From a virus, in the IMG/VR virus record IMGVR_UViG_3300032214_001462, positions 1 through 64,000 of that record: a stretch of 64,000 nt of DNA; one strand, given 5' to 3'. Both the position numbers and the translations under genes were made by a program. The notes under the pieces are model-generated. The model worked only from the letters and a program-made list of their open reading frames with translations, was not told the origin of the DNA and made no database searches. Of the stretch, positions 3,505 through 21,521 are shown piece after piece; position 1 is the stretch's first letter; every line of letters begins with the position of its first letter.

Positions 3505-3532
3505 TGGTCAGTTTTACGTCGTGACCAGGACG
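3505..3532 (-). ncRNA. Pseudoknot motif A, copy 1
   Basis: CGUC-C-UGGUCA-C-GACG-UAAAAC-UGACCA. Confidence 0.75.
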
Positions 3533-3569
3533 CCCACACCCCCGTGGAACAGCAAGTCTACCAGCTCTG

Positions 3570-3926
3570 TCAAGCCTTGGCTGTCGGCTTGGTCAACTCA
3601 GAAATGTAGTTGGTAAGAGCTTCGACCTTAGCGTTCACGGATTGAATCTCAGCCATCAGCTCCTCCCTGGAAGGGGTCAAGCCAAAGATGTCATTGTCTT
3701 TGATGGCTTCAGGGTTGTTGCTCTTTTGGTACCGGCGGCAATCATCGTTGGTTGCATAGACAGTCTCTTGATACAAGTCAAGAACTGTTTTGAAATCAAC
3801 GCTACCCGCACCTTCGGCACTAAGTATGTTGCAAGTTTTCAAATAAAGCTGGGCAGCAAAACGAATGTTGTCTTCAAAGAACTCCTCGTACTGTTCAGAA
3901 GGAAGGCCGTAGGTGTCAATCGACAT
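3570..3926 (-). CDS. Hypothetical protein
   Basis: ORF track; ATG start at MSIDTY. Confidence 0.65.
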   Translation of the reverse strand: MSIDTYGLPSEQYEEFFEDNIRFAAQLYLKTCNILSAEGAGSVDFKTVLDLYQETVYATNDDCRRYQKSNNPEAIKDNDIFGLTPSREELMAEIQSVNAKVEALTNYISELTKPTAKA

Positions 3927-4101
3927 AACAATCCAAAGCTTTTCGGAGTGAATCAATAATAAAGGTTTCTTGAGCTTGTGGACCTAAGTCGGTCCACCAC
4001 TGGAGATCAGGATCTGTTTCATCCCAATCTATTTGGATTAATGGGCTACCATCTTCTTCTTCAATAAAATTAATTTTTAATTTGTAAAAAGAATCCTGCA
4101 T
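3916..4101 (-). CDS. Small acidic hypothetical protein
   Basis: ORF track. Confidence 0.55.
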   Translation of the reverse strand: MQDSFYKLKINFIEEEDGSPLIQIDWDETDPDLQWWTDLGPQAQETFIIDSLRKALDCYVD

Positions 4102-4110
4102 CTGAAGTAA

Positions 4111-5049
4111 TTACTTTTTAATAGCAGCTTTCAACTGAGGCAATGCTGTACCAGGGAATGGGACGTAGCCAGCCTCCATCATGTTGAAGAAGAGATCCCA
4201 TGCATCATGCTGTGTAAAGATCTCCCTTGGTTTGTAAGTACGCCAATGACTCAAAGGTGCTTGTGCACCTGAGTTTGTGTATAGCAATACAAAGCGCCCA
4301 TCGCTGATGTGATCAGACGGTGGTGCATACCACCAGGCAACACACTTTTCAGGTGTGCCACTGGGACTGGAGTTACGTGCTTCTGTCCGCTTACAAAGCA
4401 ATTCCCTGTACTTATTGAACCAAGTCAAGTGGATGCACCATGGCCGGAAGCCTTGGATCTCGGACGCAAAGTCAGATAGGTTGCTGAGCTGACGCTGATA
4501 CGACCCACACGAACACCAAGGGTCACCCATGACAGGTGCTTCTTCCTCAGTCCCCATGTCGCTGTCAAGATCAATGGGCCGATTCGGAAGACGCAAACCG
4601 TCTGGTGCAATGAGATGACCAAGATCTGTTTGATCCGACTGCAGAAGTGCTGTGACTTTTACTGGATCTGACAGATGTATGAATTTGTCAGCCCAATGAG
4701 CCTGAAGCTGGGCATTAGAAGTCAGGTGTCCGAGTGCGTGCGTGTAGTTCCAGCCCTTAAAAAGAATGTAAGCATTGTTATGCCATACACTAGGGCCACG
4801 ATAATTAGGGCCAAGGTAAGAAAAGAAATCTTTGAGACGGTTTGTGTAACTACTATAAGCAGCTTTGATTAACTGCCTGTTGTAAGTCTGCTCGCTACCA
4901 TCAGAACGCACCACAAGGCAATTGTCATCTCGCAGATAAATGCCAGTGATTGAGGTGTCATCAAAATCCTGGAACGCACGACGGATATTAGTCCGTGTGT
5001 AAATCGAGGCTTGAGCTTGGTTGAGTTCGAGTTGAGTTTGGAGTGACAT
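4111..5049 (-). CDS. SWIM-type zinc-finger protein
   Basis: CSC...CIH (CxC-xn-CxH) signature. Confidence 0.65.
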   Translation of the reverse strand: MSLQTQLELNQAQASIYTRTNIRRAFQDFDDTSITGIYLRDDNCLVVRSDGSEQTYNRQLIKAAYSSYTNRLKDFFSYLGPNYRGPSVWHNNAYILFKGWNYTHALGHLTSNAQLQAHWADKFIHLSDPVKVTALLQSDQTDLGHLIAPDGLRLPNRPIDLDSDMGTEEEAPVMGDPWCSCGSYQRQLSNLSDFASEIQGFRPWCIHLTWFNKYRELLCKRTEARNSSPSGTPEKCVAWWYAPPSDHISDGRFVLLYTNSGAQAPLSHWRTYKPREIFTQHDAWDLFFNMMEAGYVPFPGTALPQLKAAIKK

Positions 5050-5067
5050 GATTGGAGTTGAGTTGAG

Positions 5068-5259
5068 TTAGCGGTTGAGCCAGTAGTCCTGTTGGGCCTT
5101 TTCCTCCTTTGCTTTTTGGTAAGCACCCTTAGCCATCCTATACGATCCATAGATCACGGCAGCCCATGCGGCTGGAGAAGGAAGCAGTAACGCAGCAGCT
5201 GCTGTGACCAGTGCTGTTGCGCCACCTACTTTAAGCGCAGCTTTTTTCTCAGGTTTCAT
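5068..5259 (-). CDS. Small membrane protein
   Basis: Hydrophobic Ala-rich helix; start at MKPEKK. Confidence 0.55.
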   Translation of the reverse strand: MKPEKKAALKVGGATALVTAAAALLLPSPAAWAAVIYGSYRMAKGAYQKAKEEKAQQDYWLNR

Positions 5260-5339
5260 GTTAGAAATCCTTAACACAAATGGAAACTTTTAATCAAGTT
5301 TAGTAACAGTCTTAGAATAATTTGAAATACTTGGAACTC

Positions 5340-5546
5340 ATGTTGCAATTTGAAATGAGTCCAGAGGAAGCATTCTGGCAGGAGAAGATGATACGTTCAA
5401 TTAATGATTGCAATTCAATGAGTGAGTTAAAGGAAATGGCAATCCTCTTAGCGAAGATTGCCACGATGCGTCAAGTTGCAATCAAAGGATTAGTCAAAGA
5501 TGCTATGGATCTGATGGGTAAACAAGTCCATAGCATCTCAGATTAA
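5340..5546 (+). CDS. NblA-like phycobilisome degradation protein (divergent)
   Basis: Two-helix pattern MSPEEAF...INDCNSMSELKEMAILL...RQVAIKGL; own TAGAAT box at 5313. Confidence 0.45.
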   Translation: MLQFEMSPEEAFWQEKMIRSINDCNSMSELKEMAILLAKIATMRQVAIKGLVKDAMDLMGKQVHSISD

Positions 5547-5547
5547 A

Positions 5548-6648
5548 TCACAGACTGCTGTCTTCACCCGTGAGTTCATCACGTGCAGGCAATGCTTTCA
5601 CATCAACTGCATCTGTGGTACGGGATACGGGAAGAATCTGTACACCATCTTTGATTCCATAAGCACCACCAAGACGTTGTGCGTCTTGACGAGAATGTTG
5701 ATTGATGTAATCTTCAAACATCTCTTGGTACTTCCAAGTCGACTCACGATCTTCATCAGGAATCGAAAGACGATTCAGTGATTCGACCGCATCCTCTTGG
5801 CTGCTGTAAGCAGGAATCTCAAAGGATTCAATTGCACAGATCTCAACGTTGTTTGCACCGCGCATCTCATTAGCAAGCACTGGCACAAATACCGTGGTTG
5901 CATAGAACTTTTCGTTAAAGGCAAGCGGTACTTCGGAATCCAGTGCTTTGCTCAGGCACTTAGACATTTCCTTTTCATACAGCTTAACTTTATCTGAAAC
6001 ATCTGTACCATTAAGACCCTTAAGTGTAAGCACCATCGGGATCTTATGTGCACGCTTGTTATCTTCCGTGAGAATATAAACAAGGTACTTGGTACGTACG
6101 CTGTACTTACGCTTGTACATCTCACCTTTGCTGTTGGCAAGATCAGATGCAATCTTGTCGTTCTCAAACATTGCCTTCACCTCTGGATCTTCAAAGGTGC
6201 CAATCGTTTGACGCATACCAGTTGTTTCTTCCACCATCAGTGGAGAACGCAGCAGGATTTGCACACGAGGCTCAGTGAAATTCAAGCCTTCTTCAATGGA
6301 AGTATTAGGTGCCATACCAAAGGTTTGCTTGTAATCCCAGATGACAGAGCCTTTGGTGAACTGATCTTCAGTTGCATTCCAACCGCAAGTATCTAGATCA
6401 GATTTACGAACAAACCAACCACGTACCTTTGATTTATTTAAAGGCTGGATGGTAACAAGATTCTGGTAGCCAGAGACAAACTCTTTGGCTTGGAAAAGTT
6501 TGAAGGAATCAAGCCCACGAGTTGCAAGGGCAGACGTTTTTTTGGCAGTCATTTTGTTAGATGCTTTCAGAGGAGATGCGGAAGTTAGTTCAGATTCGAG
6601 TTCATCCATCCAGGAATCACTCATCATGTCAGTCGGAGTTGCTGTCAT
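5548..6648 (-). CDS. DUF5895-like protein (cyanobacterial family, SSB-associated)
   Basis: RSPL, RTKYLVYIL and HKIPMVLTLKG motifs. Confidence 0.55.
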   Translation of the reverse strand: MTATPTDMMSDSWMDELESELTSASPLKASNKMTAKKTSALATRGLDSFKLFQAKEFVSGYQNLVTIQPLNKSKVRGWFVRKSDLDTCGWNATEDQFTKGSVIWDYKQTFGMAPNTSIEEGLNFTEPRVQILLRSPLMVEETTGMRQTIGTFEDPEVKAMFENDKIASDLANSKGEMYKRKYSVRTKYLVYILTEDNKRAHKIPMVLTLKGLNGTDVSDKVKLYEKEMSKCLSKALDSEVPLAFNEKFYATTVFVPVLANEMRGANNVEICAIESFEIPAYSSQEDAVESLNRLSIPDEDRESTWKYQEMFEDYINQHSRQDAQRLGGAYGIKDGVQILPVSRTTDAVDVKALPARDELTGEDSSL

Positions 6649-6667
6649 GGTTTTTTCTTAGCAAAGA

Positions 6668-6695
6668 TGGACAGTTTAACGTCATATCCAGGACG
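6668..6695 (-). ncRNA. Pseudoknot motif A, copy 2
   Basis: CGUC-C-UGGAUA-U-GACG-UUAAAC-UGUCCA. Confidence 0.75.
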
Positions 6696-6715
6696 ATCTA
6701 TTTAATTGTTTTATT

Positions 6716-6937
6716 TCATTCAATTTCCAACTTTGTTTTTTGTAACGAATCAAAGTAAGAATCAGATGATTCTCGCATTGCTTCAAAGATAGTGCTTTCG
6801 ATATAGCCACAACCCTTGAGGAAATAAACAAGGCGTTGGACTACATCATCAGCAACTACAGCTTTGAACTCATGCAGTACTTTGTTGTTTTCATCTTCAT
6901 AAAGAAGAGTGAATTGATCGTGAGTTGGGAGTGACAT
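6716..6937 (-). CDS. Hypothetical protein
   Basis: Common phage pattern HEFKAVV...VQRLVYFLKGCGY. Confidence 0.65.
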   Translation of the reverse strand: MSLPTHDQFTLLYEDENNKVLHEFKAVVADDVVQRLVYFLKGCGYIESTIFEAMRESSDSYFDSLQKTKLEIE

Positions 6938-7755
6938 CAGAATGGAGGTTCATCAGAGTCAAAGTTGGGAGCACTACCGTATTGACCAGGGAGGTCAGGC
7001 AGGCCACCACCTGAGGTTTGTGTCCAAGGATCCGTTGATTCCTCAACGCTCTTGCCACCCCAAAGGCTAGCAACGCTATCTGTTGATGCCACTGTTGTTT
7101 GCGGTGCCACAGATTTCGTTTGAGACTCAGTGTTCTTTGGTGCCAATGTCATCTGCACCAACTGAATCTTTGTAATACTGCGCCGCTGCTGGGACTCCTT
7201 ATCAGTCCATGCATCAGTAACAAGACGCCCACGAATGGTGATGCCTGTTCCTTTGCGTGTGAAATTAAGAAGAAGTTCAGCTTGATTTAATTTATCTTGT
7301 GCACTATTGATCGCATAGAAGTTAAACAGATCTGCTTGATTGCGACCTGTGTTAACACAGATAGTTTGGTTTGTAATCATCAAACCATCTGCTGTTGTTT
7401 TGAATGCGCGTGAATCAGTTTGGTCAATATCTTTAATGCAACGACCCGTCAAGATCACGTCGTTGAGGACAGGGAATGCTTCAGTAACTTGAGCAATAAC
7501 TCCTCCATGGAGCGAGTACGCTTTTGATTCGAGATCAAACCGTAGCTTGGCGCCGTGAATGTAGACACGGTTTCCTTTGTCAAACTCTTTGAATTTGTCG
7601 CAGGCTTTCCCGTAAACATGGAAGGTCAGAACAGTCGGAGCTTTGTTGCCAACAGGCGGAAGCATAACTTCCGCACAGAGATTAGATGATGTTGCACTGG
7701 TGTATACCTCACGAGGCTTCTCGTTAAGGATGGCGCAAACGTCAACGTAATTCAT
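6937..7755 (-). CDS. ssb: Single-stranded DNA-binding protein with tandem OB folds
   Basis: VILTGR, KGTGITIRGRLVTDAWTDKE and acidic C-terminal DEPPF. Confidence 0.8.
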   Translation of the reverse strand: MNYVDVCAILNEKPREVYTSATSSNLCAEVMLPPVGNKAPTVLTFHVYGKACDKFKEFDKGNRVYIHGAKLRFDLESKAYSLHGGVIAQVTEAFPVLNDVILTGRCIKDIDQTDSRAFKTTADGLMITNQTICVNTGRNQADLFNFYAINSAQDKLNQAELLLNFTRKGTGITIRGRLVTDAWTDKESQQRRSITKIQLVQMTLAPKNTESQTKSVAPQTTVASTDSVASLWGGKSVEESTDPWTQTSGGGLPDLPGQYGSAPNFDSDEPPF

Positions 7756-7775
7756 GAGATCAAATGTGAAGTGTT

Positions 7776-7803
7776 AAAGCAGTTTAACGTCATGCTTAGG
7801 ACG
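7776..7803 (-). ncRNA. Pseudoknot motif A, copy 3
   Basis: CGUC-C-UAAGCA-U-GACG-UUAAAC-UGCUUU. Confidence 0.75.
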
Positions 7804-7808
7804 TTTCA

Positions 7809-9671
7809 TTAGTGGGTTTGTGACCAGTTGGATCCTACACGAGAATCGCCTTCAATCTCGCATTGAAACCCAAAGAATTTCTGGGCTTGCGGAAAGGCAA
7901 GCATAGCTTGATCACGAATCGCCTCAGTGTATTGAGGCTTACAAACTAGTTGAACTTCGTCATGAACCATCAACACTTGTTCCCAGTTTTGGCCATGGGG
8001 CAGCTTGAGTGCTGATTCAATATTGTTATGAATGTTAATAACAACTTGCTTCATAAGGATTGCACCTGCTGATTGCAACAATACATTCAATCCTTTGAAA
8101 GAAGATCTGCAATGCAAGATACGTTTATCTAAGCCAATTAAATAACCTCTATGCGAAATATTATTTTCAATTTGTTCTTTTAATTTCTTCAATGCAGGCA
8201 CTCCCTTCATGAATGAATTAATTGCAGTTCTTCCTAGCTGTCTAAGAACTTCTTCATCCTTTTCATTTGGATCAACAATTGTGCCGGCTTTTAAATGGCC
8301 AGCACCGTAGAGGACTGCATAAAGTAAACGCTTGCTAATATCCCTGGTCTCAACACCAAAACGTTCTTGGTTATACACGTGGATATCAATCTCTGGATCT
8401 GTAACAACACTTGCGTATTCACCTCGATCCCAGAAAGCCAAGTAACCAGCAAGGCAACGCAACTCTAGTGCTTTGGCATCAATGCCAATCATCTCCCATC
8501 CTTGTGGTGCATGAAACAACGAGCGGCATTCTTTGCCATAAGGTGAATAGCCTGCTGGAACCTGGCCCATATTTGGGTACTTGTGAGCACAACGACCAGT
8601 GATGCAGCCAGAAGTAACAACGTCACCGTGCATTCGACCAGTATCATTGTTAACCAACTTGAGCCAAGAGTTGTTTCCATCTGCGATTTGGCCAAGACGT
8701 TTTTTGATTAGCATGTATTCTGCCAGAGGTTTTGCCTCAGGGAAAGGCAGTTGCTCTAGTACTTCATCATTAAGAATTGGATTTCCTTTCTCAGTTGTTT
8801 TTTCTGGTTGCCATCCGTACTTAACCTTAAGTCGATCAACAATTTGGTCACGAGATCCAGGATTGAATTCTTCGTATCGTACTTTTTCAAATGGTACTCC
8901 TTTGATGTAGCCACGATTTTTATTGTTGACTCTTGGTACAAACCAGGTGCGATGTTCAATTGGTGGAAATATTTCTTTTAGATGTGCTTCAAGTCCTGTT
9001 TGTTTTGTTCGTAGATCATCCACGAGATCAAGACATGCATCCACATCAAAAGGAATACCTGCCCTAATTTGTTTGTTAATCGCAAGAGCAAAGTCGTGTT
9101 CAAGTTTAAGAGCTGATTCGGAATAGTTTTGATTGACGATATGTTCCCAAAGCTTTTTTGTAACTGCAACGTCTTGCTTGCAGTAGTCAAGCATCTCTTG
9201 AGAATATTCTGAGAAGTCCTTGAAGTCGATCTTATGGTCGGCCAATCTCCATCCCCACGCCTTAAGCGATGCGGATCCACGCAGGTTCGGTGGAACCTCC
9301 GGATATTGTTCGATGTCAAGGTCATAGAGTTTTTCCTTAGGCCAAATCAATCGTGTGCAGATGAGTGTGTCAATGATGCGTGTTTTGCAGTCAAATGAAT
9401 GCAGCTTTTGCAGAACAGGACAGTCATAGAAACAAATGTTATGGCCAATCAAAACATCAGCGGTTGCCAGATGAGCAATAGCGTTAGCAATGCTGTCAGG
9501 CCCATAGCTAAAAGTTTGATTGGCTGTGATGTCATGGATGACTAGGCAATGGATTTTAGTGACCTTGTCATAGAGACCATCTGATTCAAGGTCAAATACT
9601 AGGTACCGATCATTTACGGAACCTGGCTTCAGTTTGAATTGAGAGTTCTTTACAGGCAAGGTCTTCGTCAT
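7809..9671 (-). CDS. polA: DNA polymerase family A, T7-like (3'-5' exonuclease plus polymerase; Tyr at the 762-equivalent site)
   Basis: ExoI FDLESDG, ExoII GHN, ExoIII YCKQDV, motif A DAKALELR, motif B KRLLYAVLYG, motif C VHDE. Confidence 0.95.
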   Translation of the reverse strand: MTKTLPVKNSQFKLKPGSVNDRYLVFDLESDGLYDKVTKIHCLVIHDITANQTFSYGPDSIANAIAHLATADVLIGHNICFYDCPVLQKLHSFDCKTRIIDTLICTRLIWPKEKLYDLDIEQYPEVPPNLRGSASLKAWGWRLADHKIDFKDFSEYSQEMLDYCKQDVAVTKKLWEHIVNQNYSESALKLEHDFALAINKQIRAGIPFDVDACLDLVDDLRTKQTGLEAHLKEIFPPIEHRTWFVPRVNNKNRGYIKGVPFEKVRYEEFNPGSRDQIVDRLKVKYGWQPEKTTEKGNPILNDEVLEQLPFPEAKPLAEYMLIKKRLGQIADGNNSWLKLVNNDTGRMHGDVVTSGCITGRCAHKYPNMGQVPAGYSPYGKECRSLFHAPQGWEMIGIDAKALELRCLAGYLAFWDRGEYASVVTDPEIDIHVYNQERFGVETRDISKRLLYAVLYGAGHLKAGTIVDPNEKDEEVLRQLGRTAINSFMKGVPALKKLKEQIENNISHRGYLIGLDKRILHCRSSFKGLNVLLQSAGAILMKQVVINIHNNIESALKLPHGQNWEQVLMVHDEVQLVCKPQYTEAIRDQAMLAFPQAQKFFGFQCEIEGDSRVGSNWSQTH

Positions 9672-9843
9672 TGTTGTTAATCCAAGTCAATATCTGCTGC
9701 GCACCCGCTCGATAGGGATGAGAGAAGATCTTGTTTAAAGCTACATCTGAATCTAGCGGAATCAATTCGAATTTATTAGTCTCGCTGTTTGCAGTAATGG
9801 CATGTGGTCGGCCCCACTGCCAGCAGGAAATGATGTAACTCAT
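9610..9843 (-). CDS. Hypothetical protein
   Basis: ORF track; overlaps polA start. Confidence 0.55.
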   Translation of the reverse strand: MSYIISCWQWGRPHAITANSETNKFELIPLDSDVALNKIFSHPYRAGAQQILTWINNNDEDLACKELSIQTEARFRK

Positions 9844-9905
9844 TGATCAAATAAAAGACGGATGCATATTATCCGATTTGATTTGATCGTCAAGCAGCTA
9901 CAGAT

Positions 9906-10667: not shown

Positions 10668-10702
10668 GGTGTTGAGTTGAGTTGAATGATAAAAAAAACT
10701 GA

Positions 10703-10730
10703 TGAGTAGTTTAGGGACATGCTCAGGTCC
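10703..10730 (-). ncRNA. Pseudoknot motif A, copy 4
   Basis: GGAC-C-UGAGCA-U-GUCC-CUAAAC-UACUCA; stem 1 shows compensatory changes. Confidence 0.7.
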
Positions 10731-10762
10731 ATCTTCCCGTTCGGGAATGCTAGTGGGTCTGA

Positions 10763-13120: not shown

Positions 13121-13121
13121 C

Positions 13122-14065: not shown

Positions 14066-14112
14066 ATAGAAAGACCCCCGCCAATGCAGGGGCCGAACAT
14101 TCCGGTAGTACC

Positions 14113-14475
14113 TTAGACAGCTGTAGCTTCTGTGTCAATGAGCTTGTCATAAAGACCAGCATCCTTGAGCCGCTCAAGCATGCCACACATCATGGTTGCG
14201 TGGGCTTGAGTGGTCTCCATGAAGTGACGTGCACGTTCAGCTGAGATCACATGAACGTTGCCGTTAGGTTCGACATACTTCCATGAGCCATCAGGCTGAG
14301 GATCACCCTGGAGCGCAAGCTTCTCAGAGTTACGGACGTAACGTAGCTCAAGGTTATGATGATCCTTAAGGCCATCACCATCCGTCCATGTAGCACCGAT
14401 GTTGTAGCGCTTCTCATCATCAGAGTATGCATGGAACTCAGGGATGAGAGATTTGAAAGCAGAAAGGAATTGCAT
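14113..14475 (-). CDS. Hypothetical protein
   Basis: ORF track; followed by a terminator-like hairpin at about 14068-14095. Confidence 0.65.
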   Translation of the reverse strand: MQFLSAFKSLIPEFHAYSDDEKRYNIGATWTDGDGLKDHHNLELRYVRNSEKLALQGDPQPDGSWKYVEPNGNVHVISAERARHFMETTQAHATMMCGMLERLKDAGLYDKLIDTEATAV

Positions 14476-14505
14476 TGTTTTGAATTGAGTGTGGGTTGGT
14501 AGCCG

Positions 14506-14535
14506 ACTGGGACTTACACCTTATGGATGCCCAGT
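14506..14535 (-). ncRNA. Bulged-stem motif B, copy 1
   Basis: ACUGGG-CAUCCAUAAGGUG-UAAGU-CCCAGU. Confidence 0.65.
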
Positions 14536-14586
14536 TATGTGTGTCACATATTTATTGCTTGGCTCATAGTTAAGTAAAGAAAAGAC

Positions 14587-14660
14587 TGCCTGCTGACGGA
14601 TTCGAACCGACACTGAACGAGGCTTAAACTCGTCGCCTCTACCAGTTGGGCTAAGCAGGC
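14587..14660 (-). tRNA. trnL: tRNA-Leu(UAA), short variable loop, CCA not encoded
   Basis: Acceptor stem GCCTGCT/AGCAGGC+A; anticodon arm ACGAG-TTTAAGC-CTCGT; T-loop TTCGAAT. Confidence 0.9.
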
Positions 14661-14860
14661 TCGCTTGGACTTACGTCAATTGCATCTGACTGCCAAGTGT
14701 GATCTTGAGGCAGGACTTCCATTCCGTAAGTCCAGCTATCGTAGTCTTCTTCGTTGCGGGGATCGTCTTCAATCAAGATGTACTGTGGTGAATTGTCATG
14801 AATGTAATCGCCGAGATTAGCTAGTGCCATGGCAAGCAACTGCTCATCGGTATGGTCCAT
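14651..14860 (-). CDS. Small acidic protein; 3' end overlaps motif B2 and the tRNA 5' end
   Basis: ORF track; D/E-rich. Confidence 0.55.
   Translation of the reverse strand: MDHTDEQLLAMALANLGDYIHDNSPQYILIEDDPRNEEDYDSWTYGMEVLPQDHTWQSDAIDVSPSEPA
14664..14697 (-). ncRNA. Bulged-stem motif B, copy 2 (3 nt upstream of the tRNA)
   Basis: CUUGG-CAGUCA...UGACG-UAAGU-CCAAG. Confidence 0.6.
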
Positions 14861-14909
14861 GGTTAAAGAGGCATCCCATTTACGAGGATAGGATGCCCCT
14901 GCTGTGGCT

Positions 14910-16619: not shown

Positions 16620-16648
16620 GAGTTGAGTTCGTAGTTGGTTCGTAGTAT

Positions 16649-16676
16649 TGAGCAGTTTAGCGTCATGCTCAGGACG
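16649..16676 (-). ncRNA. Pseudoknot motif A, copy 5
   Basis: CGUC-C-UGAGCA-U-GACG-CUAAAC-UGCUCA. Confidence 0.75.
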
Positions 16677-16686
16677 TATGACTTAG

Positions 16687-16929
16687 TTAGTCAAGCTCTA
16701 CAAGTTGCCATTGAGGATCGAGGGAATCAAGATAGCTACAGAAGCCGTCTTCATCAAGAGGTATTGGTTCCTCTGGATCCAGTTCAATAGTTGCTTGACA
16801 CAATGCTGGAGCCCACTCTTCAGGTTCGAAGCGAGTCGCCCGATAGAGGAGGCGCATTTCGTCAACAAGAGCTGTAACTGTGACATGAGTATCTGTGAAT
16901 TGAGTATGTTCGATTGCGAGTACAGTCAT
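16687..16929 (-). CDS. Acidic hypothetical protein
   Basis: ORF track. Confidence 0.65.
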   Translation of the reverse strand: MTVLAIEHTQFTDTHVTVTALVDEMRLLYRATRFEPEEWAPALCQATIELDPEEPIPLDEDGFCSYLDSLDPQWQLVELD

Positions 16930-17114
16930 TAGTCAGGTTCCACAAATGAAACTGTGTTTGATATGAAACACTTGTAACGAGTCCACGCCCTTGCAGTTGT
17001 GTGCTCGCCCATGAAACGATTGTTATCAAGGCAATTTTGATGTGCACGTTCCGATGCACAACGTGCAATGTTGATGCGTTCGAACAAGCTGAGGTTTGTG
17101 TCTCTGTTGTACAT
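16929..17114 (-). CDS. Hypothetical protein
   Basis: CTCAACTCAACTC leader; TAATG junction. Confidence 0.6.
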   Translation of the reverse strand: MYNRDTNLSLFERINIARCASERAHQNCLDNNRFMGEHTTARAWTRYKCFISNTVSFVEPD

Positions 17115-17138
17115 GAGTTGAGTTGAGTAATTGGATTT

Positions 17139-17172
17139 GATCTAGGACTTACACCTTACGGATGCCTAGATC
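17139..17172 (-). ncRNA. Bulged-stem motif B, copy 3
   Basis: GAUCUAGG-CAUCCGUAAGGUG-UAAGU-CCUAGAUC. Confidence 0.7.
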
Positions 17173-17173
17173 T

Positions 17174-17371
17174 TTAGATTAATTTAATGTTTGGAATGCT
17201 CAATCCTGTGCCAGGAACACTGAGTGATCCTTTGACACCATTTGGATTGGCATTGAGAGTTAGTTGGAATGGACCAAGCTTAATCGCTTTGGTCATTGAT
17301 TTAATTCCGTGTTCAGTTATGTTGACACCATGGATGGTGCGATCAAAACTGATGAGTGATTTCTTAGTCAT
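17174..17371 (-). CDS. DUF4236-like small protein
   Basis: KAIKLGPFQLTLN...SVPGTGLS. Confidence 0.5.
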   Translation of the reverse strand: MTKKSLISFDRTIHGVNITEHGIKSMTKAIKLGPFQLTLNANPNGVKGSLSVPGTGLSIPNIKLI

Positions 17372-17577
17372 TTGAGGTCTTCAGGTAGGAGTGCATTGGC
17401 ATCATCGTCATCCATATTTGTCATGACGAATTTCTGTCCATCGGGGGATATAAAGCCACCGATGAAACCGATGCCATGTTTATCTGCTGATTCTTTCATC
17501 TTTGCTACAAGCTGCATAGCTTGAAGTCTTTGCATATCCAGAGAGTCTGGTATGCGAGGAGTGTTTGGTGTTGGCAT
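17368..17577 (-). CDS. Hypothetical protein
   Basis: ORF track; CTCAAC leader. Confidence 0.6.
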   Translation of the reverse strand: MPTPNTPRIPDSLDMQRLQAMQLVAKMKESADKHGIGFIGGFISPDGQKFVMTNMDDDDANALLPEDLK

Positions 17578-17739
17578 TGATGTTGAGTTGATTAACTGAT
17601 GAAGTCTATCAGGGTTGTAAAGGGTTGATTGATGTATTAAAAGATATTACTTATAGATAGTACTTATATAAACCATAGATCCCCCCTGGTACTCCACTGG
17701 GGGAGTGTGAGGGGGGGAATACATGTGTACTACCTGATG

Positions 17740-18210
17740 TTACCGATGCATCTCCTGGTGTTCTTTCCATGCAGCTGCATGCATTTCTGCTGCAGTGATG
17801 GGTGGTTCACCAGGTTCGTTAGGTGTTGGATCGTAGTCGATCTCATCTTCCAACATGCCGATGACCTCATCGACAATGTTACGCATGTGCGGATCAAGAT
17901 GCTCGTCCATTTGATGACGCTTATCTTCGCGAGCACAAATGGCTTTAAGTGCATCAACTACTAGCTTTAGTTGATGGTACTCATTCTTGGTCCAATCAAT
18001 TGCTGGATACTTCTTGGTTTGTTCCATGGTTGAGTTAAGGTTGAGGTTGGGTTGTAGATACCAATCGTGTTTGTTTACCATTGCTTCACAGTGGTAACAC
18101 TGAAGTGCTGTCCACTGGAAGTGATAAACAGTTGTCCGATTGTTGCACTGTGGGCAGTAAATAGATTTACCACCTTGCGATGCACGTGTTGAGTCTGTTA
18201 CTTGTGTCAT
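17740..18210 (-). CDS. Zn-ribbon hypothetical protein (possible second start near 18027)
   Basis: CPQC and CYHC pairs; internal CTCAACC-ATG leader. Confidence 0.6.
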   Translation of the reverse strand: MTQVTDSTRASQGGKSIYCPQCNNRTTVYHFQWTALQCYHCEAMVNKHDWYLQPNLNLNSTMEQTKKYPAIDWTKNEYHQLKLVVDALKAICAREDKRHQMDEHLDPHMRNIVDEVIGMLEDEIDYDPTPNEPGEPPITAAEMHAAAWKEHQEMHR

Positions 18211-18228
18211 TGACAGATCACAGTAAAT

Positions 18229-18269
18229 CCTGGGACTTACACACCGTACTTACGTAGGTGAAGCCCAGG
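18229..18269 (-). ncRNA. Bulged-stem motif B, copy 4
   Basis: CCUGGG-CUUCACC...GGUGUG-UAAGU-CCCAGG. Confidence 0.65.
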
Positions 18270-18338
18270 TGTGGACTGATGTATTGGCATGTATTCGCTA
18301 TTTGCGAATAGCAAATATATAACGGAAGTGTTATGGAG

Positions 18339-18593
18339 TCATAGCCCGGTCTTAGGTTCGAGCATGATCCAGCCAGTGTAGTTAGCACTGGTTCGATCAA
18401 CGCGTAGTAATCCGTATTGTTCTAGTTTGATCAATGCGTTGAGATATTGATCAAGCCTTGATATTTGGGTTGAACACCGTGGCACATAGCACGGAGTGTT
18501 CTTATGCTTCTTCTTGTGATTCAAGAAGTAGAGATATAGATTTCGCTGATTGATTGTCAGGCCTGGTGCTAGGCCCAGTACTTCTGTTGTCAT
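18339..18593 (-). CDS. Hypothetical protein (possibly winged-helix)
   Basis: LTINQRNLYLYF...YLNALIKLEQYGLLRV. Confidence 0.6.
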   Translation of the reverse strand: MTTEVLGLAPGLTINQRNLYLYFLNHKKKHKNTPCYVPRCSTQISRLDQYLNALIKLEQYGLLRVDRTSANYTGWIMLEPKTGL

Positions 18594-18961
18594 CAGCAGT
18601 AGTGTGGTTTGATTTCGGGATAGACTTTAGCGTATCCGTTGTCAAAGTTGACTTCGTAGTTCGAGTACGTCGTTGAGAGGCCAAGGCTTGGCTGCTCTTG
18701 GATCTCGTACTCGTCGAAGTATTGGATGAAGGTTTGGACTGCTTGCTTCTTGGAGAAGATGCAGTGGGTAAGGACTGGGTATCCTGCTTGGTAGTACCAA
18801 CCACCTTCCTCTGGACCACCGTAGTTGAGTGTGGTTTCGTGGATGGTGATTGTCGTTGGGGTTTCGTATTCCCATTCAAGGTGTGTGTTGTAGCGCTGGA
18901 GGGCGTAACGCACTTTGTAAGTTCTGGGGTAGAACTTTTGGAGCTCACTGAGATAAGACAT
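18593..18961 (-). CDS. Conserved phage protein (YGGPEEGGWYY)
   Basis: YGGPEEGGWYY motif and C-terminal P..KPHYC. Confidence 0.7.
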   Translation of the reverse strand: MSYLSELQKFYPRTYKVRYALQRYNTHLEWEYETPTTITIHETTLNYGGPEEGGWYYQAGYPVLTHCIFSKKQAVQTFIQYFDEYEIQEQPSLGLSTTYSNYEVNFDNGYAKVYPEIKPHYC

Positions 18962-19036
18962 TGAATTGAATCGATGAGTGTTGTGATGAGAATGGAGATG
19001 AGGGTAATGATGACAATGACGATGTCATCTTCGTGA

Positions 19037-19165
19037 TTACGATTCGTCATCATAGCCCTCCCATTCTTCTTCAGTTGTTTCACGCATAGCTTGCTCTTGT
19101 TGATATGCAATGTCAGCCATTGCATCAAGCAAGTCTGCGTTGAAGTTGTTATCGAGGTTAGTCAT
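19037..19165 (-). CDS. Highly acidic 42-aa peptide
   Basis: Manual translation MTNLDNNFNADLLDAMADIAYQQEQAMRETTEEEWEGYDDES; CTCAACTCAA leader. Confidence 0.6.
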   Translation of the reverse strand: MTNLDNNFNADLLDAMADIAYQQEQAMRETTEEEWEGYDDES

Positions 19166-19197
19166 GGTTTGAGTTGAGGTAAGTGGATAAGTGGACA

Positions 19198-19425
19198 CTA
19201 GCCGTGGGGTACGAAGTCAGAGTCGCTGAGCAATTGGTGGACTGACAGGCAGTCCTCTGCAATCTCATCTCTGGTGCAGCCGTCCCAATCATCAGATTGA
19301 TCTTCGATCACTTCGCAGCCAATGTCTTCGAGTTGATCGACGAATTGATTCCAGGTACGTGCTTGGCCCCAGACGTGGGCATAACGCCCAGTGAGGTCAG
19401 CGACTAGTGCGATGTGGAGTCCCAT
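19198..19425 (-). CDS. Acidic hypothetical protein
   Basis: ORF track; start at MGLHIAL. Confidence 0.55.
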   Translation of the reverse strand: MGLHIALVADLTGRYAHVWGQARTWNQFVDQLEDIGCEVIEDQSDDWDGCTRDEIAEDCLSVHQLLSDSDFVPHG

Positions 19426-19600
19426 TGTTCTGTGGTGTGATGTTGGTGATGTCAACGCCTAACAGTGCAGGCACTGTGAATGAGGCGATGATGATGGCAA
19501 AGGTTGCGACCAGTACATTCCCTAGTCGATTCTCATGAGTCTCACCATAAGAATCAAGGGTGATGTACTTGCCTTTGCCCATGGAGTAAATAGTTCGCAT
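19397..19600 (-). CDS. Small membrane protein
   Basis: One hydrophobic helix; start at MRTIYS. Confidence 0.55.
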   Translation of the reverse strand: MRTIYSMGKGKYITLDSYGETHENRLGNVLVATFAIIIASFTVPALLGVDITNITPQNNGTPHRTSR

Positions 19601-19617
19601 GGTGTTGTGTGCAGTTG

Positions 19618-19691
19618 CTGCAGGAGGTGAGTCCTGCAGTAAACCCACCACCGATACGGATCCGTATCAATGGAAGGGTTAAGAGCAGGAG
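19618..19691 (-). ncRNA. Motif C, copy 1
   Basis: UCCUGC-UCUUA-[hairpin]-UUUACU-GCAGGA-CUCACC-UCCUGC. Confidence 0.7.
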
Positions 19692-19695
19692 TCTG

Positions 19696-20079
19696 TCAGA
19701 AAGGAATTTCTTCCAGTGTAGGTTCTACCTGGAGTGTTGGTTCAACCGTTGCCTTGGGCTTAGGTGCTGAACCAATGGTTGCCCTTACGTTTGTAAGAGC
19801 GATCTCTGGGTAGCGAAGAGGAAGTAGTTGTTCATCCTTGGTGTAGTGCGTACGAATACTTGCGATCCGTACGTCCCACTGGCTAAGGATGAGTTGCTGT
19901 CCGACAACGAATGTACCGTTGCGGTAAGCAGTTAACAATCCGTTGGAATTGTTAAATTTAATCCGACAAGACTTGTCGTATGCATCATTGACTGCAACTG
20001 TGATTGCAAGGAATTCACGTCCTTCATAGGTCGCGACTTCCATGTAAGTAACGTTGCCAATGATGGTGTTAGAGAACAT
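19696..20079 (-). CDS. Second SSB-like OB-fold protein
   Basis: TIIGNV...ITVAVND; acidic C-terminal EEIPF. Confidence 0.5.
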   Translation of the reverse strand: MFSNTIIGNVTYMEVATYEGREFLAITVAVNDAYDKSCRIKFNNSNGLLTAYRNGTFVVGQQLILSQWDVRIASIRTHYTKDEQLLPLRYPEIALTNVRATIGSAPKPKATVEPTLQVEPTLEEIPF

Positions 20080-20101
20080 GGTTGGTATGAAGTTGAGTTG
20101 A

Positions 20102-20177
20102 TGTACAGGATGTTGAGTCCTGCAGTAAACCTACCGTCGTAGTACATACGTACTGACGGCAGGGCTTAGAGCAGGGA
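20102..20177 (-). ncRNA. Motif C, copy 2
   Basis: CCCUGC-UCUAA-[hairpin]-UUUACU-GCAGGA-CUCAACA-UCCUGU. Confidence 0.7.
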
Positions 20178-20381
20178 TCAGTTTAGATACTTTGCATTAA
20201 TGCAGTAGTAGCTATCACCAAGGAAGCTCTTGGTGTAGATCAGGTTATGTCCTGGTCTGTTGTTGCATGTCTTCTTGTAGTGTTGGTTGAGTAGCTTCTG
20301 GCCTCCAGCAGAAAGGAATAAGCCACAACCAACGCCGAGAACAAGAGCAACACAGGAATCGATAAAGTGATTGTTTGTCAT
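20178..20381 (-). CDS. Small membrane-anchored protein
   Basis: N-terminal hydrophobic helix; FLGDSYYC. Confidence 0.55.
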   Translation of the reverse strand: MTNNHFIDSCVALVLGVGCGLFLSAGGQKLLNQHYKKTCNNRPGHNLIYTKSFLGDSYYCINAKYLN

Positions 20382-20407
20382 GGTGTTATGTAGTGTGTTA
20401 AGAACGC

Positions 20408-20680
20408 TCACATCATTTGCATGATGCGTTCTTGTTCCATGTCGATGCTGTACTCGTAGTACTCATGCATCTCCATGAGCATGTCTTTCATTGAGCTTGG
20501 TAATCCACCGCCGAGAGTACGGACATCACGCTCCAACCATTCCTGGTATGTAGCATTGGTATCGGCGTCGAATGTATTCCATAGCTTCTCGAAGTGAAGC
20601 ATGGTTGATTCACCGCCGTACCATGTGATGCGATACTGATGTTCGCCGGATGGTTTGTAGACCAGTGCAGGTGTTGTCAC
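20408..20680 (-). CDS. Hypothetical protein (GTG start)
   Basis: CTCAACTCAAC leader before GTG at 20680. Confidence 0.6.
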   Translation of the reverse strand: MTTPALVYKPSGEHQYRITWYGGESTMLHFEKLWNTFDADTNATYQEWLERDVRTLGGGLPSSMKDMLMEMHEYYEYSIDMEQERIMQMM

Positions 20681-20705
20681 TGTTGAGTTGAGGTAGTGTT
20701 GATGA

Positions 20706-20754
20706 CAGGATGTTGAGTCCTGCAGTAAAGGCCCGTAGGCCCTTAGTGCAGAAG
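20706..20754 (-). ncRNA. Motif C, copy 3
   Basis: UUCUGC-ACUAA-GGGCC-UACG-GGCC-UUUACU-GCAGGA-CUCAACA-UCCUGU. Confidence 0.7.
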
Positions 20755-20928
20755 TCAAAGTTCAGTCTTGGGAGTAATGACAAATGCCATATCGTTAGGC
20801 ATCAGCAGGGCTGCTGCACGTATACGGTATTCATTTAGCTTGGTGCTGACATACTCCTTAGATTTGTCACTCTCCAGCATTGCTGCTGTTGAGATAAGTG
20901 CATTGGCTAGTCCTTTGCGGATACCCAT
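20755..20928 (-). CDS. Small hypothetical protein
   Basis: Start at MGIRKG, downstream of motif D1. Confidence 0.55.
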   Translation of the reverse strand: MGIRKGLANALISTAAMLESDKSKEYVSTKLNEYRIRAAALLMPNDMAFVITPKTEL

Positions 20929-20943
20929 ATTGTGTAGTGTAGA

Positions 20944-21011
20944 TGCCACGGGATTGTGGCAATAACTGGGCAGGGGTTTGCACCCTGCCACCCGCTTTAA
21001 CGGATCAGCTA
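20944..21011 (-). ncRNA. Motif D (tRNA-like three-way junction plus hairpin), copy 1
   Basis: UAGCUG-AU-CCGU UAAA GCGG-GU-GGCAGGG UGCAAAC CCCUGCC-CAGUUA-U-UGCCAC...GUGGCA. Confidence 0.7.
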
Positions 21012-21208
21012 GTTTGGAAGGCTGACCTGAACATTGAGTCATACACCTTATGTGTAACCTCGCGGTTCGGATCGTTAATCGCAACAAAGCGATCAACCAT
21101 TTCAGCTAGGCAGACTTCATAGTCAACCATTCTCTGACAACAATCTTCAATTGCTGCCTCACGAAGTGAGATCAGCACTTCAAGAGTGTGAGCAAGAGCT
21201 TGGTCCAC
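21005..21208 (-). CDS. Small hypothetical protein (GTG start)
   Basis: AGGAG Shine-Dalgarno before GTG. Confidence 0.55.
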   Translation of the reverse strand: MDQALAHTLEVLISLREAAIEDCCQRMVDYEVCLAEMVDRFVAINDPNREVTHKVYDSMFRSAFQTS

Positions 21209-21230
21209 AGGAATCTCCTGTTGTGTGCGG

Positions 21231-21303
21231 TGCCTATCTCCGCTGGAGGCAATGACCAGAGCCAGGCATTGCACCTGGCTTGGGAGCTATAACTCACCTG
21301 GCC
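21231..21303 (-). ncRNA. Motif D, copy 2
   Basis: GGCCAG-GU-GAGU UAUA GCUC-CCA-AGCCAGG UGCAAUG CCUGGCU-CUGGUC-AU-UGCCU...AGGCA. Confidence 0.7.
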
Positions 21304-21473
21304 TGAAGCTGACGTACGAACTTACGTGCGTTGTTAACTGACATCGTGGTGCTGCAGTCGTAACCCTTCTGGCTCTTACGAACCAGCTTGGTGATACGAG
21401 CTAAGCCCACTTGCTTGTTAACCACGAAGTGATACGTTGCTTGCTTGGTTGAGATTGTGAAGAAGATGTCCAT
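21294..21473 (-). CDS. Small basic protein (59 aa), first gene of the leftward arm
   Basis: Manual translation MDIFFTISTKQATYHFVVNKQ...RQLQAR. Confidence 0.55.
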   Translation of the reverse strand: MDIFFTISTKQATYHFVVNKQVGLARITKLVRKSQKGYDCSTTMSVNNARKFVRQLQAR

Positions 21474-21496
21474 TGATTTGAGATGGATTGAAGGTT

Positions 21497-21521
21497 GCTG
21501 CGTTTAACGTCCAGCTCGACG
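21497..21521 (-). ncRNA. Pseudoknot motif A, variant copy 6
   Basis: CGUC-GAGCUG-GACG-UUAAAC-GCAGC; loop GCUG pairs with CAGC. Confidence 0.55.

What the first reader, a model, noticed from the sequence alone, without database searches (positions are those of the whole stretch)
3505..21521. Ordered set of four structured-RNA families punctuating the whole leftward (early/middle) arm
Seen: 15 elements, all on the coding strand. In transcription order they run A6, D2, D1, C3, C2, C1, B4, B3, A5, B2, B1, A4, A3, A2, A1. Most start at or just after the upstream stop codon and end about 15-35 nt before the next start. Within each family the stems covary while loops and bulges stay fixed, which points to RNA structure rather than DNA operators. 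None has a U-tail. Inference: a phage-wide post-transcriptional code in which D and C mark the earliest genes, B intermediate genes and A the replication genes. Possible roles are processing sites, 5'-exonuclease (RNase J) roadblocks, antitermination elements or binding sites for phage proteins. They could also serve as recombination joints for gene-cassette shuffling. I do not recognise a described system like this.
Basis: partly seen in the sequence, partly recalled or inferred. Interest (0 to 1): 0.88.

Follow-up and report, generated by a model that had tools for sequence, protein, structure and literature searches.

The report
Folded RNA punctuation between cyanophage genes
The gaps between the early and replication genes of this lake cyanophage hold four families of small folded RNAs, including a knot that copies a plant-virus RNA known to stop an RNA-degrading enzyme and a tRNA look-alike; they probably mark where the long message is cut and shield the pieces, but this is untested.

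Summary
None matches Rfam, even at E up to 10.

- **A** is an H-type pseudoknot, not a plain hairpin. In 122 copies, 96% of cells pair against 80% in shuffles. Its stem, first loop base and spacer match the plant-virus coremin xrRNA, which stalls Xrn1.
- **D** is a tRNA-like three-way junction, followed by AUUGCC and a hairpin or second knot.
- **C** has three segments forming two mutually exclusive helices; both covary.
- **B** is a hairpin with a fixed UAAGU bulge. One copy abuts the 5' end of the phage tRNA-Leu in nearly every relative.

The order D, C, B/A, A holds, with a few exceptions, in 19 related genomes, including the cultured phage S-EIVl.

The A knot also lies between genes of unrelated phages of Firmicutes, Actinobacteria, cyanobacteria and alphaproteobacteria. 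It is absent from 5,426 E. coli genomes. D also occurs in T7-like cyanopodoviruses.

My best reading is RNA punctuation that directs and blocks host RNases. No cut or protected end has been observed.

This scan already noted the same knot and punctuation on other genomes (57 notes in 51 genomes).

The parts
21497..21522 (-). A6: variant A pseudoknot. S1 is ACGUC/GACGU, the loop is 6 nt, and S2 is GCUG/CAGC after UAAACG. It is the first element after the early promoter region; the ATG is at 21473.
   Evidence: Sequence read. It is not in the A alignment because of its shorter loop.
21227..21303 (-). D2: tRNA-like three-way junction (21303-21254), then AUUGCC, then a class-K pseudoknot (21250-21227). 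The upstream gene's UGA stop (21296-21294) lies inside the junction. GGAG and a GTG start follow.
   Evidence: Alignment A2 and pair counts; coordinates; fold.
20945..21011 (-). D1: tRNA-like three-way junction (21011-20963), then AUUGCC, then a class-H hairpin (20960-20945). The upstream UGA is at 21007-21005.
   Evidence: The MFE reproduces the junction with z = -3.4.
20705..20753 (-). C3: short-form two-state element. Segment 1, a P2 hairpin with a UACG loop, segment 2, a CUCAACA loop, segment 3.
   Evidence: Fold energy is -22.7 kcal/mol, against -18.5 with segment 1 blocked.
20105..20176 (-). C2: long-form two-state element.
   Evidence: Fold energy is -32.5 kcal/mol, against -27.5 with segment 1 blocked.
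19618..19690 (-). C1: long-form two-state element. Its P2 carries the palindrome GATACGGATCCGTATC (19668-19653).
   Evidence: The MFE is the segment 2:segment 3 state, -35.0 kcal/mol.
18229..18269 (-). B4: hairpin with a 5-6 bp P1, an extended P2 and the UAAGU bulge.
   Evidence: z = -4.0.
17141..17170 (-). B3: short-form B hairpin. P1 is CUAGG/CCUAG, covarying with the other copies.
16649..16676 (-). A5: pseudoknot upstream of the 569-aa PcfJ-like gene.
14664..14697 (-). B2: B hairpin with P1 CUUGG/CCAAG. It lies inside the 3' end of a 69-aa ORF and ends 3 nt before the tRNA.
   Evidence: The same junction occurs in nearly every relative.
14587..14660 (-). tRNA-Leu(UAA) gene, flanked by B2 on its 5' side and B1 about 50 nt from its 3' end.
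   Evidence: Rfam tRNA hit at 53 bits. ARAGORN finds tRNA-Leu(UAA) in the relatives.
14507..14534 (-). B1: short-form B hairpin.
10703..10730 (-). A4: pseudoknot with a compensated S1 (GGAC/GUCC) and the spacer CUAAACUAC, upstream of the GP88-family gene. A run of eight U follows at 10698-10691.
7776..7803 (-). A3: pseudoknot between the DNA polymerase and SSB genes.
   Evidence: As a BLAST query it finds the knot in unrelated phages.
6668..6695 (-). A2: pseudoknot upstream of the DUF5895 gene.
3505..3532 (-). A1: pseudoknot with the spacer UAAAACU, upstream of a small membrane-protein gene.

Best explanation
The leftward arm is read as long multi-gene transcripts. The four element families are RNA 'punctuation' on those transcripts. 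They tell host ribonucleases where to cut and where to stop, so each gene or cassette gets defined and protected ends.

**Shown:** the folds, their conservation and their placement.

**Inferred, family by family:**
- **A** is a compact coremin-like pseudoknot. It blocks a 5'-to-3' exonuclease (RNase J in cyanobacteria) and leaves the downstream cistron with a knotted 5' end about 21 nt ahead of its start codon.
- **D** imitates the acceptor/T-arm half of a tRNA. RNase P cuts at its 5' side and RNase Z cuts after the discriminator. The downstream RNA then begins 2 nt before a stable hairpin or knot.
- **B** is a bulged hairpin. At the tRNA-Leu junction, RNase P cleavage would leave it as the 3' cap of the upstream message.
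- **C** flips between a long hairpin and a short downstream hairpin when a ribosome terminating 1 nt upstream, or a cut, frees its first segment.
For: **RNA folding**
- A pseudoknot: 96.4% of cells pair against 80.3% shuffled and at most 52% slid; 178 double-change cells against 56.
- D junction: 93.3% against 74.7%; 13 of 16 pairs show compensatory change.
- D class-K knot: all 8 pairs formed in 19 of 19 copies.
- C: both helices track 9 segment-2 variants.
- B: the three outer pairs of P1 all form in 78 of 122 anchor-selected sequences against 30 expected.
- G.U pairs far exceed A.C.
- Strand bias: 154 A copies on the coding strand against 3 on the other.

**A resembles coremin**
- It has the same S1 (CGUC/GACG), the same L1 base (C) and the same spacer UUAAACU(A/G)C as BNYVV coremin. 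I rebuilt these positions from PMC6546385 and PMC10321173.
- Coremin stalls Xrn1 in vitro.

**D resembles a tRNA**
- P0 (5 bp) plus P2 (7 bp) gives a 12-bp stack.
- The G-C closing pair and the 7-nt loop UGCAAAC match 6 of 7 T-loop positions.
- Two relatives carry UUCGAUU or AUCAAAU in that loop.
- P3 starts 3 nt after P0.
- Plant mitochondrial t-elements are a precedent for mRNA end formation by RNase P and RNase Z (PMC1920247).

**Link to tRNA processing**
- B2 abuts tRNA-Leu in nearly every relative.
- The A knot lies 3 nt after tRNA-Tyr in phage S-CRM01 and 4 nt before a tRNA in Nostoc phage NMeng1.

**Transcript context**
- Sigma-70-like promoters are depleted in the arm (11 against 31 expected) and none lies at an element.

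**Host range of the knot**
- Full-length intergenic matches occur in phages of Firmicutes, Actinobacteria, cyanobacteria and Rhodobacterales.
- There is no match in 28 Gb of E. coli genomes. E. coli lacks RNase J (established knowledge).
Against: - No RNA end, cleavage or half-life has been observed, and no RNA run could be listed.
- A lacks the downstream hairpin hp2 that coremin needs to resist Xrn1. Its loop is 8 nt with U, not G, at the second position.
- Xrn1 and RNase J are unrelated enzymes.
- The tight A-to-ATG spacing (IQR 20-27) and the G-poor leaders without a Shine-Dalgarno motif (0 of 128) fit a translational role equally well.
- D lacks a D-loop/T-loop elbow and a CCA end.
- B has no known analogue.
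- The BLAST host survey used only three loop variants, and I did not tabulate RNase J presence in the hosts.
- Copies in related genomes are not independent, so the shuffle controls overstate significance.
Confidence: 0.5

Rival explanations
1. The elements are translational control devices. They would act as binding sites for a phage or host RNA-binding regulator, as ribosome standby platforms, or as insulators that stop terminating ribosomes from sliding into the next gene. This would matter because the leaders lack Shine-Dalgarno motifs.
For: - A ends 20-27 nt before the ATG and D ends about 17 nt before it, just outside a ribosome footprint. Leaders are 6% G with 0 of 128 SD-like motifs.
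- C begins 1 nt after the stop codon and D contains the stop codon, so terminating ribosomes must open them.
- Coremin blocks scanning ribosomes and promotes frameshifting (PMC10520033; PMC10321173).
Against: - In unrelated phages the knot keeps its place just after a stop codon or tRNA, not its distance to the next start (52-80 nt in phiETA3, GR1 and Javan407).
- No RNA-binding protein was recognised in the arm.
- Only about a third of the genes carry an element.
Confidence: 0.25
2. The elements act at the DNA level, as promoters, operators or recombination joints for shuffling gene cassettes. The RNA folds would be incidental.
For: - End-points of homology with relatives cluster within 25 nt of elements: 224 of 936 against 69 expected. 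Early ORFs vary while the elements persist.
- Copy numbers of D, C and B differ among genomes.
- Some Staphylococcus phage records annotate the knot as 'promoter'.
- The P2 of C1 shares a palindrome with the early promoter region.
Against: - Crossing (pseudoknot) covariation has no meaning in duplex DNA.
- G.U pairs are tolerated but A.C are not.
- Strand bias is absolute.
- No sigma-70-like hexamers lie at the elements.
- Stem sequences differ among copies within one genome, so no single protein site is kept.
- Clustering of end-points is expected for any intergenic repeat. Shuffling may be a side effect.
Confidence: 0.1
3. One or more families are ligand-sensing riboswitches or self-cleaving ribozymes. 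For example, A could be a preQ1-I-sized aptamer, C an expression platform, or D plus P3 a new ribozyme.
For: - A has the size and H-type topology of preQ1-I, with an A-rich third loop (my own knowledge).
- C is bistable, with states 4-5 kcal/mol apart.
- An earlier scan note reports a hammerhead in a related phage's early operon (I did not check it).
Against: - No Rfam riboswitch or ribozyme family matches, even at E up to 10.
- Five or six A copies per genome precede unrelated genes.
- The candidate 'pocket' bases of A's S2 vary freely.
- No queuosine or ligand-related genes were seen.
Confidence: 0.07
4. The elements modulate transcription elongation, for example as put-like antitermination RNAs or RNA-polymerase pause sites.
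For: - They lie on the nascent transcript of a long operon.
- A4 is followed by a U8 run.
- In Streptococcus phage Javan407 the knot follows a terminator-like hairpin.
Against: - 14 of 15 have no U tract, and none was called terminator-like.
- Known antitermination RNAs act once per operon, not 15 times.
Confidence: 0.05

Closest known systems
Coremin motif (xrRNA-C) of BNYVV, cucumoviruses and other eukaryotic RNA viruses, and its Watson-Crick variant xrRNA-WCC (Dilweg et al., PMC6546385, PMC10321173, PMC10520033)
   Same: Family A shares the 4-bp hairpin stem CGUC/GACG, the single C as first loop base, the spacer UUAAACU(A/G)C, and a loop-to-spacer pseudoknot. Natural coremin variants with loops of up to 8 nt are reported. 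Both occur between or after ORFs, often in several copies.
   Different: - A has an 8-nt loop with U, not G, at position 2.
- Its Watson-Crick S2 has 5-6 bp and lies after UUAAAC(U), rather than 3 pairs at positions 18-20.
- It has no conserved downstream hairpin hp2.
- It sits on mRNAs of DNA phages of bacteria, where the 5'-3' exonuclease would be RNase J, not Xrn1.
- Nuclease resistance is untested.
t-elements of plant mitochondria and the mitochondrial tRNA punctuation model (Forner et al. 2007, PMC1920247)
   Same: Family D is a partial tRNA mimic (acceptor-like stem plus T-arm-like hairpin) embedded in polycistronic transcripts at gene boundaries. A real tRNA gene in the same arm sits at a gene boundary too.
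   Different: - D lacks an anticodon arm.
- Its T-loop-like sequence is UGCAAAC rather than UUCRANY.
- It contains the upstream stop codon.
- It is always followed by AUUGCC plus a hairpin or knot.
- Cleavage by RNase P or RNase Z has not been shown.
RNase III processing sites of the phage T7 early region (R0.3-R1.3); from established knowledge
   Same: Structured RNAs between the genes of a long early phage transcript that separate and stabilise individual messages.
   Different: T7 sites are about 20-bp duplexes with an internal loop, all of one kind. Here there are four unrelated folds, mostly too short for RNase III.
PeSL (promoter-early stem-loop) cassettes of T4-type phages (Arbiol et al. 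2010; from my own knowledge, not re-read here)
   Same: Repeated intergenic elements flanking small, variable early genes, associated with modular gene shuffling.
   Different: PeSLs are defined by an early promoter plus a stem-loop. No promoter-like hexamers lie at these elements, and the folds are knots and junctions.

Membership tests
Coremin / xrRNA-C | 5' hairpin hp1 with a stem of 3-5 bp | tested here: met
   The 4-bp S1 is paired in all 121 distinct rows of alignment A1. CGUC/GACG occurs in 93 copies and is identical to BNYVV positions 1-4 and 9-12.
Coremin / xrRNA-C | hp1 loop consensus YGAD (4 nt) or YGNNAD (6 nt) | tested here: inconclusive
   The loop is 8 nt. The first base is C in 122 of 122 copies (a Y). 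The second base is U, not G. The seventh base is A in 122 of 122. The eighth is U in 98, C in 13 and A in 11. Natural 8-nt loops are mentioned, but no consensus is given.
Coremin / xrRNA-C | Conserved spacer U13 U14 A15 A16 A17 C18 U19 A20 C21 | tested here: met
   AAACU is invariant. U13 and U14 are mostly kept, and U14A occurs as it does in natural coremin variants. Position 20 is G or A.
Coremin / xrRNA-C | A second hairpin hp2 directly after the spacer, required for Xrn1 resistance | tested here: not met
   The knot is followed by a G-poor, unstructured leader. A 5-6 bp Watson-Crick S2 takes that place.
Coremin / xrRNA-C | Stalls a 5'-3' exoribonuclease | not testable with these tools
   Needs an in vitro RNase J or Xrn1 assay.
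tRNA-like t-element | Acceptor-like stem stacked on a T-arm-like hairpin of about 12 bp with a 7-nt loop | tested here: met
   P0 (5 bp) plus P2 (7 bp), a 7-nt loop, and a G-C closing pair in 38 of 40 copies.
tRNA-like t-element | T-arm motif GGTTCRANYCC | tested here: inconclusive
   The usual loop is UGCAAAC, matching 6 of 7 positions. Two relatives carry UUCGAUU or AUCAAAU. ARAGORN and the Rfam tRNA model do not call these elements.
tRNA-like t-element | mRNA ends coincide with the element's ends (RNase P / RNase Z cleavage) | not testable with these tools
   No RNA run was listed.
Any Rfam 15 family | Covariance-model match | tested here: not met
   In 3000-22500, at E up to 10, only the tRNA gene and chance microRNA/snoRNA hits appear.
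PeSL cassettes of T4-type phages | Sigma-70 early promoter joined to a stem-loop | tested here: not met
   No promoter-like site lies at any of the 15 elements.

The most novel reading that the evidence does not exclude
Phages of bacteria that have RNase J carry an exonuclease-resistant RNA knot of the same design as the coremin xrRNA of plant and fungal RNA viruses. S-EIV1-like cyanophages combine it with tRNA mimics, a bulged hairpin and a ribosome-sensitive two-state hairpin. Together these would form a modular punctuation system that sets the ends, lifetime and perhaps the timing of every cassette on the early transcript. It would be the first xrRNA-type element and the first t-element-type processing signal described in a bacterial virus.
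Probability: 0.35. Interest if true: 0.9.

Novelty: new variant of a known kind. Interest (0 to 1): 0.78.

Why it matters
- Exonuclease-resistant RNAs are known only from eukaryotic RNA viruses. A near-identical core in DNA phages of several bacterial phyla would extend the principle to bacteria and to RNase J. It would also raise the question of convergence against transfer.
- tRNA-like processing signals on phage mRNAs would explain how phages with few promoters and no Shine-Dalgarno motifs give individual genes their own stability.
- The elements are short, portable and covariation-defined, so they could serve as mRNA stabilisers or insulators in cyanobacterial and Gram-positive engineering.
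- They are unannotated in public phage records, and sometimes labelled 'promoter'.
- A cultured phage-host pair that carries all four families (S-EIVl on Synechococcus PCCC-A2c) makes the question directly testable.

Tried and rejected
- **Rfam:** the gathering threshold and E up to 10 gave nothing for any family.
- **Pattern scan of 596 Gb of prokaryote genomes** for CGTC-N4-9-GACGTTAAACT: it returned over 120 hits. Thousands are expected by chance (my own arithmetic), and loop-to-downstream pairing matched shuffles. Only about ten hits with 8-nt loops looked genuine, so I rejected this as a survey method.
- **Real tRNA genes replacing D:** my first reading was that L052:3380 and L007:1022 were tRNA genes. 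ARAGORN calls none there. They are D variants with canonical T-loop sequences.
- **RNase III site reading of C:** the short forms have only about 16 helical steps, so I did not pursue it.
- **preQ1-I reading of A:** no Rfam hit, and there are many copies before unrelated genes.
- **Phage-encoded RNase or RNA-binding protein:** Pfam and PHROGs on 20 or more arm ORFs found none.
- **RNase J family search with control genomes**: the output does not say which controls pass the cut-off, so it was uninformative.
- **BLAST of B and C against named phages:** only chance partial hits inside coding sequences.


Full report
**What the DNA is**

The window is the first 64 kb of an 80,662-bp virus record with direct terminal repeats. 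Its only megablast relative among named phages is Synechococcus phage S-EIVl.

Genes from 3.3 to 21.5 kb run on the minus strand. They include:
- a family-A DNA polymerase
- SSB
- ThyX
- a GP88-family protein
- a PcfJ-like protein
- many small ORFs without family

The structural genes run rightward. I found no RNA polymerase or RNA-processing gene. Sigma-70-like promoters are depleted in the arm (11 against 31 expected). TATAAT-type sites cluster at 21.6-21.8 kb, so long leftward transcripts are likely.

**Checking the observation**

All 15 elements are present on the coding strand in the order given, with coordinates fixed. Strict structural scans of the whole genome find none on the plus strand and two chance hits elsewhere on the minus strand. 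Rfam 15 has no match for any of them, at the gathering threshold or at E up to 10.

I fetched 37 related IMG/VR loci through the polymerase (68-88% identity). For 20 of these I also fetched the upstream early region.

**Family A**

An HMM built from the six window copies finds 152 copies in about 1 Mb of related sequence, almost all on the coding strand.

The 'loop' is not fixed. Its five central bases are the reverse complement of the five bases that follow UUAAACU, which makes an H-type pseudoknot. Examples of the paired variants:
- UGGGC with GCCCA
- UGAGC with GCUCA
- UGGAC with GUCCA
- UGGUC with GACCA
- UAAGC with GCUUA

On 122 sequence-selected copies:
- 96.4% of cells pair, against 80.3% in shuffles and at most 52% when partners are slid.
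- There are 178 double-change cells, against 56 in shuffles.

S1 also covaries: CGUC/GACG, GGAC/GUCC, UGUC/GACA, GGUC/GACC. An invariant A-U pair can extend S2 to 6 bp, and the L1 base C is invariant. Even within this one genome the five canonical copies carry four different compensated S2 versions.

**A and coremin**

Earlier notes of this scan pointed to the plant-virus coremin motif. I checked this against the papers.

The BNYVV element can be rebuilt from the mutants described in PMC6546385 and PMC10321173. It reads C1 G2 U3 C4, loop C5 G6 A7 D8, G9 A10 C11 G12, then U13 U14 A15 A16 A17 C18 U19 A20 C21, followed by a second hairpin.

Family A has the same stem, the same first loop base and the same spacer. 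It differs in three ways:
- an 8-nt loop
- a longer Watson-Crick second stem
- no second hairpin

Coremin stalls Xrn1, blocks scanning ribosomes and promotes frameshifting. So A works like, and may be related to, xrRNA-C, but it fails one defining feature (hp2).

**A outside this lineage**

BLAST of three 34-nt A copies against 50,697 named phage records gave full-length intergenic matches in these phages:
- Staphylococcus phietaviruses (90 records)
- Geobacillus GR1
- Streptococcus Javan phages
- Nostoc NMeng1
- Synechococcus S-CRM01, S-H35 and S-RIM4
- Microcystis Mwe-JY13
- Bacillus Edson
- Paracoccus ParMal1
- Roseobacter SIO1
- Arthrobacter Molivia
- Corynebacterium phi673
- Moorella MTATph1
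- crAss-like phages
- a microvirus

Hits in enterobacterial and Pseudomonas phages were partial and lay inside coding sequence.

I inspected five loci. In each, the knot is co-oriented with the flanking genes. S1 is compensated (CGAC/GUCG, AGUC/GACU, UGUC/GACA). In four of the five the knot follows a stop codon or tRNA closely: it lies 3 nt after tRNA-Tyr in S-CRM01 and 4 nt before a tRNA in NMeng1. In Javan407 it lies about 125 nt after the stop.

The A3 copy has no match in 28 Gb of complete E. coli genomes. This pattern fits hosts that have RNase J, but I did not tabulate RNase J.

**Family D**

Forty copies align as a three-way junction:
- P0, 5 bp
- P1, 3-4 bp with a UNNAAG loop
- P2, 7 bp with the loop UGCAAAC closed by G-C

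Pairing is 93.3% against 74.7% in shuffles, and 13 of 16 pairs show compensatory change.

P0 plus P2 make 12 bp, the length of the acceptor/T-arm stack. The loop matches the T-loop consensus at six of seven positions, and two relatives have UUCGAUU or AUCAAAU there. The upstream gene's UGA lies inside the P0/P1 junction.

After P0 come A-U-U and then P3, which takes one of two forms:
- a GCCAC/GUGGC-type hairpin (21 copies)
- a second pseudoknot whose eight pairs form in 19 of 19 copies, with covariation

If RNase Z cut after the discriminator-like A, the downstream RNA would start 2 nt before a stable structure.

The same element, with the same layout, lies between gp02 and gp03 of the T7-like marine cyanopodovirus S-SBP1. 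It also occurs in S-CBP2 and a Mediterranean fosmid phage. Plant mitochondrial t-elements are the published precedent.

**Family C**

In 35 distinct copies, segment 2 (for example UGCAGGA) pairs with segment 1 upstream and also with segment 3 downstream:
- Segment 2:segment 3 is fully paired in 35 of 35 copies (control 17%).
- Segment 1:segment 2 is fully paired in 26 of 35 copies (control 15%).
- Nine segment-2 variants are each matched on both sides.

Segment 1 starts exactly 1 nt after the upstream stop codon (IQR 1-1), so a terminating ribosome must cover it.

Folding shows two states 4-5 kcal/mol apart for C3 and C2. C1 already prefers the downstream hairpin. This is a genuine bistable design. 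What it switches is unknown.

**Family B**

The design is P1 (5 bp), then C-A, a variable P2, then G-UAAGU-CC.
- With only the anchors required, the three outer pairs of P1 all form in 78 of 122 sequences against 30 expected, with six compensated pair combinations.
- The 78 copies carry 76 different P2 inserts, and the MFE keeps P1 in 67 of them.
- The CUUGG/CCAAG subtype (B2 here) ends 0-3 nt before tRNA-Leu(UAA) in nearly every relative. RNase P cleavage would therefore leave it at the 3' end of the upstream message.

**Order and cassettes**

In most of 19 relatives the order is D, then C, then B and A mixed, then only A after the polymerase, with a few out-of-order copies. Copy numbers vary. 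The cultured phage S-EIVl carries A four times, plus B, D and a C-like element, all unannotated.

Early ORFs are poorly conserved while the elements persist. Homology end-points cluster at elements, 224 of 936 against 69 expected. This is weak support for cassette exchange at these sites. It is also the simplest explanation for the ordered clustering, without any 'code'.

**RNA or DNA?**

Three observations point to folding of the transcript:
- Crossing (pseudoknot) covariation.
- Absolute strand bias.
- G.U pairs far outnumber A.C (A 60:11, D 44:6, C 28:2).

**Mechanism**

I commit, at about 50%, to RNase-directing and RNase-blocking punctuation:
- A is a 5'-3' exonuclease roadblock.
- D is an RNase P/Z site with a built-in 5' cap.
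- B is a 3' cap.
- C is a ribosome- or cleavage-triggered switch.

The main rival, at about 25%, is translational control or insulation. It is favoured by the fixed distance to SD-less starts. All functional steps are inferred; none is shown.

**Prior notes**

This scan has already reported the coremin-like knot and the punctuation layout on other genomes (57 notes in 51 genomes). The searchable literature holds no paper linking exonuclease-resistant RNAs to RNase J or phages.

Noticed in passing
window 38203-38441 (+): Group I intron (Rfam RF00028, 95.5 bits) just upstream of the major-capsid-like ORF at 38467-39600. An antisense ORF lies at 37630-38208. A first-reader note calls this an intron in the capsid gene with an HNH gene.
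   Followed up: no
window 21660-21645 and 19668-19653 (-): The palindrome GATACG-N4-CGTATC occurs next to a TATAAT box in the early promoter region and again as the P2 hairpin of C1. Relatives carry GATACGAATTCGTATC in the same P2 position. It could be an operator for a phage regulator, reused inside an RNA element.
   Followed up: partly
window 10698-10691 (-): A run of eight U lies 4 nt after the A4 knot and is conserved as a U-rich tract in relatives. A4 is the only one of the 15 elements with a U tail.
   Followed up: partly
window 11216-11872 (-): Two adjacent GC-rich paralogous genes (11746-12072 and 11226-11753) share 39-42-nt repeats at their 3' ends (83-92% identity). They are poorly conserved in relatives.
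   Followed up: no
window 12098-12530 and 5312-5546: These stretches interrupt the leftward arm with plus-strand ORFs (12098-12328, 5322-5546) and the best sigma-70-like promoter of the arm (12201-12173, minus strand). They may be inserted or antisense modules.
   Followed up: no
window 17720-17680, 14094-14073, 21965-21947 (-): Hairpins that are not members of the four families. The first is a C7/G6 stem after the 156-aa gene, read by eye. The other two are terminator-like GC hairpins with U tracts. They are candidate real terminators within and before the arm.
   Followed up: no
all leaders in 3.3-21.5 kb (-): Leaders between an element and its start codon are CA-rich (about 6% G), often CAACUCAACUCA, and lack a Shine-Dalgarno motif. 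The exception is leaders after class-K D elements, where GGAG precedes a GTG start.
   Followed up: partly
L186 (Synechococcus phage S-SBP1, record 1327-1404): A T7-like marine cyanopodovirus carries a D-type tRNA mimic with the same layout in its early region. The record annotates it as part of a hypothetical protein.
   Followed up: partly
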